Below, one piece after another: positions 28,691 through 29,503 of a stretch of 64,000 nucleotides of DNA (positions are counted from its first letter, which is position 1; every line of letters begins with the position of its first letter). The DNA lies in the IMG/VR virus record IMGVR_UViG_3300034072_001149, positions 64,001 through 128,000 of that record; one strand, 5' to 3'. Both the position numbers and the translations under genes were made by a program. The notes beneath the pieces were generated by a model. It did not search any database, had not been told where the DNA came from, and worked only from the letters and a program-made list of their open reading frames with translations. This stretch comes from a virus.

Positions 28691-28718
28691 AGTCTACAGC
28701 ACAAAGCCTATATGTCAA
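28691..28718 (-). promoter_or_regulatory. sigma70-like promoter
   Basis: TTGACA-N16-TAGACT. Confidence 0.55.
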
Positions 28719-29503
28719 CCATCAATAGGTGGGATCTTATTGATATCATCGCGCTGGGCCTGATACCAGTTGTAAACGCAACGATCCAGACCAATAGCAA
28801 TTTCAAGGACCAGAGCGTCCTTTTCCACAATGTCTTTCTTGCCCTGAAAGGTCAGCTTCTGCGGGAAATCAGTTCGTAGACTGATCGAGCAAACTTCCAT
28901 CCACTTGTCGCCGTTCCAAATCTCGACATCCATGGTTCTCTTGCTGTAAGAGGGCAGGCGATCGCTTTCGACAATACGGGTTGGCAAATGGACCATAGCG
29001 GCAATCATCTGCTGGACCTTGGTCAGCATGGCTTCCTGATAGTCCATGCCGGTATCCGCAGTAAAGATACACTGGAATTCCTGCTGGTAGAATTCCTTCA
29101 AGCGCATATGCTTGGTTGGCTGGACAATTTCCCTGCGAAAGCTTTTGCCAGCTTGCCACACAACCAAGGGAGGGAAAACCTTGGGATGAACATTGTTGAG
29201 TAAGTGCTGGGCATAAGCATAGCTACCCGGCGTGGTCTCCGGACGCAAAGCCAGCTCACGAGGGGCATTCTCAACCCGATGGTCTCCCCACTGAAGCCAG
29301 ATGTCATCCTCGGTATAGTTGACGTTTAGGAGATCTCGGGGATTGAGAAGCGGGGCTTCGATCATGAAGAACTTCCAGCGATCATTCATAGCCAGGAGGT
29401 CAGCCTGCACCCTCGCGGCAAAGAAGTCCCGCATGGTTTCCCGCAAGCGGATCTCTTCCTCATTCCAAAAGACGAGACCGTTGATGTTGAAGACGTTCTG
29501 CAT
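28715..29503 (-). CDS. Class II aminoacyl-tRNA synthetase catalytic core, GlyRS(alpha2)-like, lacking the anticodon-binding domain
   Basis: LRPETTPG, motif 2 QAGKSFRRE..MRLKEFYQQEFQ, SYSKRTMDVE, WMEVCSISLRTDF and motif 3 VLEIAIGLDR; ends about 20 aa after motif 3. Confidence 0.85.
   Translation of the reverse strand: MQNVFNINGLVFWNEEEIRLRETMRDFFAARVQADLLAMNDRWKFFMIEAPLLNPRDLLNVNYTEDDIWLQWGDHRVENAPRELALRPETTPGSYAYAQHLLNNVHPKVFPPLVVWQAGKSFRREIVQPTKHMRLKEFYQQEFQCIFTADTGMDYQEAMLTKVQQMIAAMVHLPTRIVESDRLPSYSKRTMDVEIWNGDKWMEVCSISLRTDFPQKLTFQGKKDIVEKDALVLEIAIGLDRCVYNWYQAQRDDINKIPPIDG

What the first reader, a model, noticed from the sequence alone, without database searches (positions are those of the whole stretch)
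28715..29503. Minimal GlyRS-like synthetase without an anticodon-binding domain
Seen: 262 aa with intact motifs 2 and 3. The alpha2-GlyRS signature is altered (PETAQG to PETTPG, EQME to YQQE, IEPS.G.DR to LEIAIGLDR). There is no insertion domain and no C-terminal anticodon domain. It starts 52 nt after the tRNA's CCA. Inference: an enzyme reading only the acceptor arm would suit a CUA tRNA and form a natural orthogonal pair, of possible use in genetic code expansion. The amino acid may not be Gly.
Basis: partly seen in the sequence, partly recalled or inferred. Interest (0 to 1): 0.85.

Follow-up and report, generated by a model that had tools for sequence, protein, structure and literature searches.

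The report
Stand-alone GlyRS core of huge phages
This gene encodes a real, stripped-down glycyl-tRNA-synthetase catalytic core that is widespread in huge phages, but comparative genomics does not support it being the dedicated charging enzyme of the neighbouring amber-suppressor tRNA, whose conserved partner is an amber-gated peptidyl-tRNA hydrolase gene.

Summary
Window 28715-29503 (-) is a 262-aa class II synthetase core with intact motifs 1-3. Its closest relatives are dimeric (alpha2) GlyRS. It has no insertion domain and no anticodon-binding domain, and it starts 52 nt after a CUA tRNA.

It belongs to a large uncharacterised family of 220-300 aa proteins (more than 1,900 homologues) found on huge-phage contigs and in cultured jumbo phages. 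The catalytic arginines and the three Gly-pocket glutamates are invariant, so glycine is the likely substrate.

The "natural orthogonal pair" reading is only weakly supported:
- The CUA tRNA lies upstream of the gene only in the nearest clade (9/9 loci).
- Two cultured phages carry the enzyme but no suppressor tRNA.
- One complete 480-kb phage genome has a CUA tRNA and its amber target but no enzyme.
- The clade's CUA tRNAs have G73 and variable acceptor stems, so they lack the Gly acceptor set that phage tRNA-Gly genes keep.

The CUA tRNA instead tracks a PTH2 gene with an in-frame TAG in a short leader (19/24 versus 3/48 loci). A second amber-plus-RAPP mini-ORF is conserved in the clade.

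Best reading: an anticodon-blind glycine:tRNA ligase belonging to the phage's translation toolkit. First-stage notes of this scan had already flagged the amber-gated PTH2 and RAPP leader on this same DNA.

The parts
28715..29503 (-). Gene for the 262-aa stand-alone class II (alpha2-GlyRS-type) catalytic core, here called 'mini-GlyRS'
   Evidence: ORF. PF00587 match. GlyRS is the best match by sequence and by fold. Family alignments.
29336..29368 (-). Motif 1 strand (residues 46-56, FFMIEAPLLNP), the core of the predicted dimer interface
   Evidence: Alignments. The homodimer model's interface covers residues 46-55 and 2-22.
29225..29245 (-). RPETTPG (residues 87-93), the GlyRS 'RPETAQG' signature; E89 is the first Gly-pocket glutamate
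   Evidence: Invariant E89/T90/T91. Aligned with canonical GlyRS.
29066..29146 (-). Motif 2 with its loop (residues 120-146, KSFRREIVQPTKHMRLKEFYQQEFQCI); R123, E125, R134 and E142 are invariant
28775..28810 (-). Motif 3 (residues 232-243, VLEIAIGLDRCV); E234 and R241 are invariant, and Ala236 replaces the GlyRS Ser
29556..29632 (-). tRNA with anticodon CUA (amber suppressor), discriminator G73 and an encoded CCA
   Evidence: In 9 clade orthologues, 21 pairs are kept, 15 covary and none is broken.
26876..27334 (-). PTH2 peptidyl-tRNA hydrolase gene whose 7-codon leader (MITNSFL) is followed by an in-frame TAG at 27311-27313. This is context: the likely client of the CUA tRNA.
   Evidence: The frame is conserved across the TAG in 9/9 clade loci. 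With the TAG read through, the Pfam match extends to profile positions 3-113 and rises from 61.4 to 73.4 bits. The same arrangement occurs in 26 distinct leaders of other huge phages.
27793..27867 (-). Mini-ORF MKKILTQH-TAG-APRAPP... (TAG at 27841-27843), upstream of the 119-aa gene. This is context: a second amber-containing element.
   Evidence: The peptide is conserved across the TAG in all 9 clade loci; the Phosso version is divergent.
28241..28684 (-). 147-aa phosphatase-like protein (weak DSPc match, phrog_5614), a neighbour conserved within the clade
   Evidence: Annotated 'tyrosine phosphatase' in Phosso.
30767..32116 (-). Full-length canonical CysRS (449 aa), upstream in the same translation island
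   Evidence: TIGR00435 scores 454 bits against a cut-off of 340. Conserved in the clade.

Best explanation
The ORF encodes an active, homodimeric, stand-alone catalytic core derived from alpha2-type GlyRS. It is one member of a large family specific to huge phages. It most likely makes glycyl-adenylate and transfers glycine to the 3' end of tRNA without reading the anticodon. It would then be a general part of the phage's translation and tRNA-maintenance toolkit, and tRNA-Gly is the most probable substrate.

Its position next to the CUA tRNA is a feature of one clade's 'translation island' (CysRS, tRNA-CUA, mini-GlyRS, phosphatase-like gene, amber-RAPP leader, amber-gated PTH2). It is not evidence of a dedicated enzyme-tRNA pair. 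The CUA tRNA's conserved partner is the amber-gated PTH2 gene.

Shown: the fold, the motifs, conservation, the missing domains, the distribution and the neighbourhoods. Inferred: glycine as substrate, tRNA as acceptor, and which tRNA.
For: Enzyme competence. The motif 2 Arg and Glu (R123, E125), the motif 3 Arg (R241) and the three glutamates aligned with the GlyRS glycine pocket (E89, E142, E234) are invariant across 66 members that are only 30-89% identical to the window protein. They are shared with canonical GlyRS. The AF2 model has pLDDT 95.3, and Foldseek ranks GlyRS from M. tuberculosis, N. equitans, T. thermophilus and human first.

Dimer. The model scores 0.85 against a best control of 0.01. 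That mark was reached by 20 of 30 proteins solved as pairs and by 1 of 23 solved as single chains. The runs share at least 88% of contacts and partner pLDDT is at least 87. The interface uses motif 1, as in class II synthetases, so the pass may reflect likeness to solved dimers.

Link to tRNA. tRNA genes are the only recurrent neighbours: 37 of 71 non-redundant loci have a tRNA within 4 kb. tRNA-Gly is the commonest, at 31 of 228 tRNAs overall and 8 of 32 within 300 nt, against about 5% of all tRNAs in five whole phage genomes. No protein-coding neighbour is conserved outside the window's clade. The basic motif-2 loop (K131, R134, K136) is strongly conserved.

Not tied to amber suppression. 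Domovoi and CcrBL9 have the enzyme but no CUA tRNA. G001, which is complete, has a CUA tRNA and amber PTH2 but no enzyme. Genomes G011, G012 and G014 carry the enzyme and have ordinary PTH2 genes. Phage tRNA-Gly genes keep G1-C72 (49/49), C2-G71 (45/49), G3-C70 (43/49) and U73 (46/49), whereas the clade's CUA tRNAs have G73 and no fixed acceptor pair.
Against: Nothing biochemical is known. No tool here can show aminoacylation or identify the amino acid.

The enrichment of tRNA-Gly is confounded. The gene tends to lie in the block of tRNAs for GNN codons (Gly, Glu, Val, Ala), and the loci are phylogenetically related. About half of the loci have no tRNA within 4 kb.

Canonical GlyRS needs C35/C36 and its anticodon-binding domain (established knowledge). 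A core alone may therefore be a poor tRNA-Gly enzyme.

Within the window's clade the synteny of tRNA-CUA, enzyme and two amber-gated elements is perfect (9/9). The enzyme, the CUA tRNA and amber PTH2 also lie within 2.5 kb in one distant phage, L041/L151, whose enzyme is 46% identical. The clade also has its own motif-2 loop variant, EI[IV]QPTKH, where others have EQDQ.... These facts leave room for a clade-specific link to the CUA tRNA.
Confidence: 0.5

Rival explanations
1. Dedicated natural pair. In this clade the anticodon-blind mini-GlyRS specifically charges the adjacent G73 CUA tRNA, probably with Gly. That supplies the suppressor which decodes the UAGs in the PTH2 leader and the RAPP mini-ORF.
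For: The CUA tRNA lies upstream of the gene in 9/9 loci of the clade, including cultured phage Phosso. In Phosso this CUA copy sits apart from the main arrays that hold most of its 60 tRNA genes. Two conserved amber-containing ORFs lie 0.9-2.2 kb downstream in the same orientation. The trio of enzyme, CUA tRNA and amber PTH2 recurs in distant L041/L151. The clade has its own motif-2 loop variant. The tRNA resembles no particular isoacceptor. ABD-less synthetases paired with stop-codon tRNAs are known, for example CysRS*/SelC* (PMC9437257) and PylRS.
Against: The enzyme family exists in complete genomes without any CUA tRNA. A CUA tRNA with amber PTH2 exists in a complete genome without the enzyme. 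Most amber-PTH2 loci have the CUA tRNA directly upstream of PTH2 with no enzyme within 5 kb. All seven acceptor pairs of the clade's tRNAs vary while the enzyme's motif-2 loop is constant, so there is no co-variation. These tRNAs lack the Gly acceptor set that phage tRNA-Gly genes keep. The tRNA-to-gene distance ranges from 52 to 1,874 nt, with unrelated ORFs in between.
Confidence: 0.18
2. tRNA-independent ligase. The core makes an aminoacyl-adenylate and passes the amino acid to a non-tRNA acceptor (a protein, carrier or small molecule), as EpmA, AsnA or the amino acid:carrier-protein ligases do. Alternatively it makes a dinucleotide polyphosphate, as human GlyRS can.
For: There is no anticodon-binding or other recognisable RNA-binding domain. 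About half of the loci have no tRNA nearby. Most catalytic-core-only class II paralogues known so far are tRNA-independent (established knowledge; PMC9437257).
Against: No carrier protein or other conserved protein partner is encoded nearby across the family. Scores against the amino acid:carrier-protein ligase and EpmA-type models are far below their cut-offs: NF005479 gives 13.6 bits against 357, and PF00152 gives 14.6 against 25. The long basic motif-2 loop is conserved. The gene often lies inside tRNA arrays and in islands with CysRS, PTH2 and RNA ligase.
Confidence: 0.22
3. Non-catalytic role. The protein is a pseudo-synthetase that binds tRNA or a host GlyRS subunit as a regulator or decoy.
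For: Some synthetase-like cores, such as HisZ and the Pol gamma accessory subunit, are regulatory (established knowledge).
Against: All ATP- and amino-acid-binding residues are invariant across a very diverse family, which is the pattern expected of an enzyme.
Confidence: 0.05

Closest known systems
Dimeric (alpha2) glycyl-tRNA synthetase, class IIa (e.g. PDB 8t5n, 1ati, 5z5e, 5e6m)
   Same: Same catalytic fold with motifs 1-3. It shares the GlyRS-specific RPET, FR.E...E, HYS-like Y186/S187, R.DF and E..G.DR signatures and the three Gly-pocket glutamates. A motif-1 dimer is predicted.
   Different: Only 23-25% identical. It lacks the N-terminal extension, the insertion domain(s) and the whole C-terminal anticodon-binding domain. 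It scores 60.8 bits against the 312-bit cut-off of the GlyRS equivalog model. The Ser of EPS is Ala. It is encoded only by huge phages.
PylRS (the delta-PylSn class, ~275 aa) with tRNA-Pyl(CUA)
   Same: A ~270-aa class II core that charges a CUA tRNA without reading the anticodon. There is a weak profile match (E 4e-05).
   Different: A different subfamily and amino-acid pocket. PylRS and tRNA-Pyl are co-inherited, whereas here the enzyme and the CUA tRNA dissociate across genomes.
CysRS*/SelC* (an ABD-less CysRS coupled to a UGA-reading tRNA; Mukai et al. 2017, as summarised in PMC9437257)
   Same: A synthetase paralogue that has lost its anticodon-binding domain and sits next to a stop-codon-reading tRNA.
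   Different: It is a class I enzyme in bacteria. Its coupling to the tRNA is consistent, and its exclusive charging of that tRNA is reported in the review. Neither holds here.
Amino acid:[carrier-protein] ligases (Bll0957/Atu2573; PDB 3mey, 4h2w)
   Same: Class II cores without a tRNA-binding domain, some of which activate Gly. There is a weak sequence match (E ~0.08).
   Different: They derive from SerRS and are encoded next to their carrier proteins. No carrier gene lies near the phage gene, and the model score is far below cut-off.
Bacterial GlyQ (alpha subunit of alpha2beta2 GlyRS)
   Same: A ~300-aa glycine-activating core that by itself has no anticodon-binding domain (established knowledge).
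   Different: It belongs to a different class II subgroup and depends on the beta subunit (GlyS) for tRNA binding. No GlyS-like partner or stand-alone HGTP domain was found in the phage genomes searched.

Membership tests
Class II aaRS core, Pfam PF00587 (tRNA-synt_2b; G, H, P, S, T) | Profile match above the gathering score | tested here: met
   44.4 bits against a cut-off of 29.3, at residues 81-243.
Class II aaRS core | Motifs 1, 2 and 3 with the ATP-binding arginines | tested here: met
   P51 is near-invariant in the family and invariant in the mini-plus-canonical alignment. R123/E125 (motif 2) and R241 (motif 3) are invariant in 66 sequences.
Canonical alpha2 GlyRS (NCBIfam NF003211 / TIGR00389 equivalogs) | Whole-protein score above the equivalog cut-off | tested here: not met
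   60.8 bits against 312, and 34.5 bits against 243.3.
Canonical alpha2 GlyRS | C-terminal HGTP anticodon-binding domain (PF03129) | tested here: not met
   The protein ends about 20 residues after motif 3. There is no PF03129 match in the protein. No fused long forms were found. No stand-alone copy was found in five phage genomes: the only real hit is the Phosso ThrRS.
Canonical alpha2 GlyRS | Glycine pocket: three glutamates, plus the Ser of the EPS motif (Arnez et al. 1999, from my own knowledge) | tested here: inconclusive
   E89, E142 and E234 align with the GlyRS glutamates and are invariant, but the Ser is replaced by a near-invariant Ala236. The substrate was not tested.
Canonical alpha2 GlyRS | Charges tRNA-Gly with glycine | not testable with these tools
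   Needs ATP-PPi exchange and aminoacylation assays.
Natural orthogonal aaRS / suppressor-tRNA pair (PylRS-like logic) | Enzyme and CUA tRNA are co-inherited across genomes | tested here: not met
   They are adjacent only in the nearest clade. The enzyme occurs without a CUA tRNA in Domovoi and CcrBL9. A CUA tRNA occurs without the enzyme in the complete genome G001.
Natural orthogonal aaRS / suppressor-tRNA pair | Conserved identity elements in the part of the tRNA the enzyme can see (the acceptor arm) | tested here: not met
   Only G73 is fixed. All seven acceptor pairs vary among the 9 tRNAs.
Amino acid:[carrier-protein] ligase | Equivalog score, and an adjacent carrier-protein gene | tested here: not met
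   NF005479 scores 13.6 bits against 357. No conserved neighbouring protein exists across 76 loci.
EpmA/PoxA-type (LysRS-like) ligase | PF00152 match above cut-off | tested here: not met
   14.6 bits against 25.

The most novel reading that the evidence does not exclude
In this clade the mini-GlyRS has been recruited as the anticodon-blind charging enzyme of the G73 CUA tRNA. The clade would then carry a self-contained amber-suppression module made of the tRNA, its synthetase, an amber-RAPP sensor leader and an amber-gated PTH2. That would be a natural orthogonal pair of about 260 aa plus 77 nt.
Probability: 0.18. Interest if true: 0.85.

Novelty: new variant of a known kind. Interest (0 to 1): 0.55.

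Why it matters
The proteins of this family, at 220-300 aa, are short for a class II synthetase core. The family has hundreds of sequence clusters, is confined to huge phages, and is undescribed in the literature I could search. Databases call its members 'glycyl-', 'serine-' or simply 'aminoacyl-tRNA synthetase'.

If the protein charges tRNA without reading the anticodon, three things follow. It would define the minimal tRNA-recognition capacity of a GlyRS core. It would show how jumbo phages supplement host translation. It could serve as a compact scaffold for engineering.

The work also shows what the neighbouring suppressor tRNA is for. It decodes conserved in-frame UAGs in the leaders of PTH2 and of a RAPP mini-ORF. 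The XacN1 paper looked for targets of that phage's CUA tRNAs and found none (PMC5852040).

Tried and rejected
1. Ancestry of the CUA tRNA. Global identity to 394 phage tRNAs gave no clear isoacceptor; the best matches were Lys, Ile, Gly, Val and Arg at 0.73-0.79.
2. Genome-wide search for further read-through genes. TAG-spanning peptides were compared with the whole Phosso genome. The unfiltered run was swamped by off-frame alignments. The run restricted to ORF-adjacent TAGs gave nothing convincing. TAG is an ordinary, rare stop here (13 of 164 ORFs), so the genome is not recoded.
3. Searching the motif-3 fragment alone against PDB sequences found nothing. The full alignment with canonical GlyRS was used instead.
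4. A search for fused or longer forms found only canonical GlyRS at 24-31% identity.
5. A stand-alone anticodon-binding domain was not found. The weak hit in the window's own contig lies in an SbcC-like ORF, and the Phosso hit is ThrRS.
6. PHROGs has no family for the protein.
7. Clustering of neighbouring ORFs found no protein partner conserved across the family.
9. Literature searches found no paper describing this enzyme family or an amber-gated PTH2.

Full report
**1. What is there**

The minus strand of the window carries a 262-aa ORF at 28715-29503 with an ATG start. A tRNA with anticodon CUA lies 52 nt upstream at 29556-29632. It has an encoded CCA and discriminator G73, and Rfam scores it 73 bits.

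The only Pfam family above its cut-off for the ORF is the class II core PF00587, at residues 81-243. NCBIfam places it nearest the dimeric GlyRS models, but far below their equivalog cut-offs (60.8 bits against 312). The best solved relatives by sequence are alpha2 GlyRS, at E 2.5e-09 with the single sequence and 2.8e-20 with the family profile. ProRS, PylRS, HisRS and SerRS follow a long way behind.

An AlphaFold2 model built on 66 homologues has mean pLDDT 95.3. Foldseek ranks GlyRS of M. tuberculosis, N. equitans, T. thermophilus and human first, and ProRS next.

I aligned the protein with canonical 460-479-aa GlyRS sequences recovered in the 'longer' search. Three parts are missing: the N-terminal extension, a ~60-aa insertion after motif 1, and the whole ~110-aa C-terminal HGTP anticodon-binding domain.

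**2. The family**

The protein is not an oddity.
- The word-indexed search found 1,901 proteins of 144-459 aa at E <= 0.001. The best 120 are 237-325 aa long and many lie on contigs of 300-958 kb.
- The exhaustive search found 285 clusters at 50% identity, all of them short.
- No close fused or longer form exists.
- Cultured phages with a homologue are Sinorhizobium phage Phosso (61% identity, annotated 'serine-tRNA synthetase'), Xanthomonas phage XbC2, five Brevundimonas jumbo phages and the Caulobacter Bertelyvirus group.
- PHROGs has no family for it.

Twenty columns are invariant across 66 members that are 30-89% identical to the window protein. They include the motif 2 Arg and Glu (R123, E125), the motif 3 Arg (R241), and E89, E142 and E234. 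In the alignment with canonical GlyRS, those three glutamates fall on the conserved glutamates of RPET, EQME and IEPS. By my own knowledge of the T. thermophilus and human structures (Arnez et al. 1999), these glutamates form the glycine pocket. The one pocket change is the Ser of EPS, which becomes a near-invariant Ala236.

This is the pattern of an active enzyme whose substrate is glycine or something equally small.

A two-copy model scores 0.85 against a best control of 0.01. That mark was reached by 20 of 30 proteins solved as pairs and by 1 of 23 solved as single chains. The runs share at least 88% of contacts and partner pLDDT is at least 87. The interface is built from motif 1 (residues 46-55) and the N-terminus. 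It resembles solved class II dimers, so the pass may come from that likeness.

**3. Does the enzyme go with the CUA tRNA?**

Within the nearest clade, yes. The window, Phosso (L001) and seven IMG/VR contigs (L002-L008, 71-86% identity) all have one CUA tRNA upstream of the gene. In Phosso this CUA copy sits apart from the main arrays that hold most of its 60 tRNA genes. The tRNA is under selection: across the nine orthologues 21 pairs are kept, 15 show compensatory changes and none is broken.

The spacing is not conserved, however. It ranges from 52 to 1,874 nt, with unrelated ORFs in between.

Beyond this clade the link disappears.
- In 71 non-redundant loci the gene either has no tRNA within 4 kb (34 loci) or sits in ordinary tRNA arrays, mostly the block for GNN codons.
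- In whole genomes, XbC2 has its only CUA tRNA 22 kb away, and Domovoi and CcrBL9 have no suppressor tRNA at all.
- Conversely, G001, a complete 480-kb phage with terminal repeats that is related to Phosso, has a CUA tRNA in its main array but no homologue of the enzyme.

So the enzyme and the suppressor tRNA dissociate in both directions.

**4. What the CUA tRNA is for**

I followed a first-stage note of this scan (e1-5738791) and checked the PTH2 gene 1.4 kb downstream. Its annotated 111-aa ORF starts inside the Pfam domain, at profile positions 13-113.

Upstream, in frame, lie a promoter-like site, an AAGGA Shine-Dalgarno sequence, ATG 27334, seven codons (MITNSFL) and TAG 27311-27313. After the TAG come 33 codons with no ATG, GTG or TTG, and these encode the missing first strand (KLRIYSIIRGDL). 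With the TAG read through, the Pfam match extends to positions 3-113 and rises from 61.4 to 73.4 bits. The same frame, with the leader peptide conserved on both sides of the TAG, is present in all nine clade loci.

A PTH2-based scan of viral contigs showed that this is general. One whole subfamily of huge-phage PTH2 genes has an ATG, 1-6 further codons and then a TAG. There are 26 distinct such leaders, and the base after the TAG is a purine in 24 of them. From my own knowledge (Bossi 1983; Miller and Albertini 1983), a purine in that position favours amber suppression.

A CUA tRNA lies within 5 kb in 19 of 24 such loci, against 3 of 48 loci with ordinary PTH2 (Fisher p = 4e-10, not corrected for relatedness). 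It is often 150-1,050 nt directly upstream on the same strand. The enzyme is within 5 kb only in the window's clade and in one distant phage (L041/L151). Genomes G011, G012 and G014 carry the enzyme but have ordinary PTH2 genes, while G013 has an amber one.

A second conserved amber element exists in the clade. The mini-ORF at 27793-27867 reads MKKILTQH-TAG-APRAPP... and is conserved across its TAG in all nine loci. This agrees with first-stage note e1-5738792. From my own knowledge, RAPP is the arrest motif of ApdA/ApdP-type peptides.

The genome as a whole is not recoded. TAG ends 13 of 164 long ORFs, and I found no further convincing read-through genes.

**5. Could the enzyme still charge this tRNA?**

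An enzyme without an anticodon-binding domain can see only the acceptor arm and the elbow. Phage tRNA-Gly genes in these loci (49 distinct) keep G1-C72 (49), C2-G71 (45), G3-C70 (43) and U73 (46). From my own knowledge, that is the bacterial tRNA-Gly acceptor identity set. The nine CUA tRNAs next to the enzyme have G73, and every acceptor pair varies among them. Meanwhile the enzyme's motif-2 loop is constant in those same genomes. There is thus no sign of co-variation between enzyme and tRNA.

CUA tRNAs linked to amber PTH2 elsewhere carry G73, A73 or U73. They are a mixed group that is presumably charged by host enzymes.

Some points keep the pair hypothesis alive. Synteny of the whole module within the clade is perfect, the trio recurs in L041/L151, and the clade has its own motif-2 loop variant, EI[IV]QPTKH where others have EQDQ.

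**6. Alternatives**

A tRNA-independent ligase is possible, but three things count against it.
- No carrier protein or other conserved protein neighbour is found across the family.
- Scores against the aa:CP-ligase and EpmA-type models are far below cut-off.
- tRNA genes are the only recurrent neighbours, and tRNA-Gly is the commonest of them: 31 of 228 overall and 8 of 32 within 300 nt, against about 5% of tRNAs in five whole genomes.

That enrichment is confounded by the layout of the arrays and by relatedness among the loci. A purely regulatory pseudo-enzyme is unlikely, because the catalytic residues are invariant.

**7. Verdict**

The gene is a real, active-looking, ABD-less GlyRS core of a large huge-phage family. 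I file it as a new variant of a known kind, since stand-alone synthetase cores are already known. It is most likely a glycine:tRNA ligase that does not read the anticodon and that forms part of a translation and tRNA-maintenance island with CysRS, PTH2, a phosphatase-like protein and, in relatives, RNA ligase.

The 'natural orthogonal pair' idea remains possible for this clade. I give it about 0.18, and comparative genomics does not favour it. The amino acid is probably glycine.

Jumbo-phage PTH2 has been described before (PMC7824862). Lone CUA tRNAs without known targets have also been noted, in XacN1 (PMC5852040). In the searches I ran I found no paper describing the enzyme family or the amber-gated PTH2.

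Noticed in passing
window 26876-27334 (-), TAG at 27311-27313; also L123-L156, L216: A subfamily of huge-phage PTH2 (peptidyl-tRNA hydrolase) genes has a 2-7-codon leader ending in an in-frame TAG. There are 26 distinct leaders, and the base after the TAG is a purine in 24. A CUA tRNA lies in the same locus in 19 of 24 cases, against 3 of 48 for ordinary PTH2, and it is often directly upstream. This looks like a widespread suppressor-dependent switch on PTH2 expression.
   Followed up: yes
window 27793-27867 (-), TAG at 27841-27843: The mini-ORF MKKILTQH-TAG-APRAPP... 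lies upstream of the 119-aa gene (27417-27776). The peptide is conserved across the TAG in all 9 clade loci; the Phosso version (MNKKYTHL-TAG-LHRSRSPP) is divergent. RAPP is a known ribosome-arrest motif, so a read-through-dependent arrest leader is plausible.
   Followed up: partly
L001 8912-8987 and L095 6732-6807 (Sinorhizobium phage Phosso): Phosso carries two CUA tRNAs. One has G73 and sits next to the mini-GlyRS, apart from the main tRNA arrays. The other has A73 and lies inside the main tRNA array. The related complete genome G001 has only the A73 type (L204 2696-2771) and no mini-GlyRS.
   Followed up: partly
L140 (6.1-kb contig), tRNA starting at position 196: This CUA tRNA next to an amber-gated PTH2 carries the full bacterial tRNA-Gly acceptor set (G1-C72, C2-G71, G3-C70, U73). 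It would be an ideal substrate for an anticodon-blind GlyRS, but the contig is too short to tell whether that phage has the enzyme.
   Followed up: no
window 29644-30105 (-): A 153-aa potassium-channel-like protein (Ion_trans_2, E 7.5e-12) is encoded immediately upstream of the tRNA. In the close relative L002 the tRNA directly follows the 201-aa membrane-protein gene, with no room for the channel gene, so it looks like an insertion in this genome.
   Followed up: no
L013, L022, L025, L038, L044, L056, L061 and others: In distant relatives the mini-GlyRS gene lies inside tRNA arrays that appear to be ordered by codon class. The surrounding genes are mostly tRNAs for GNN codons (Gly, Ala, Val, Glu, Asp).
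   Followed up: partly
window 30767-32116 (-) and L001, L002-L006, L008, L015, L019: A full-length canonical CysRS is a recurrent neighbour of the mini-GlyRS in this clade and in a 59%-identity relative. In Phosso, RNA ligase, ATP-grasp and metallophosphatase genes flank the same island.
   Followed up: no
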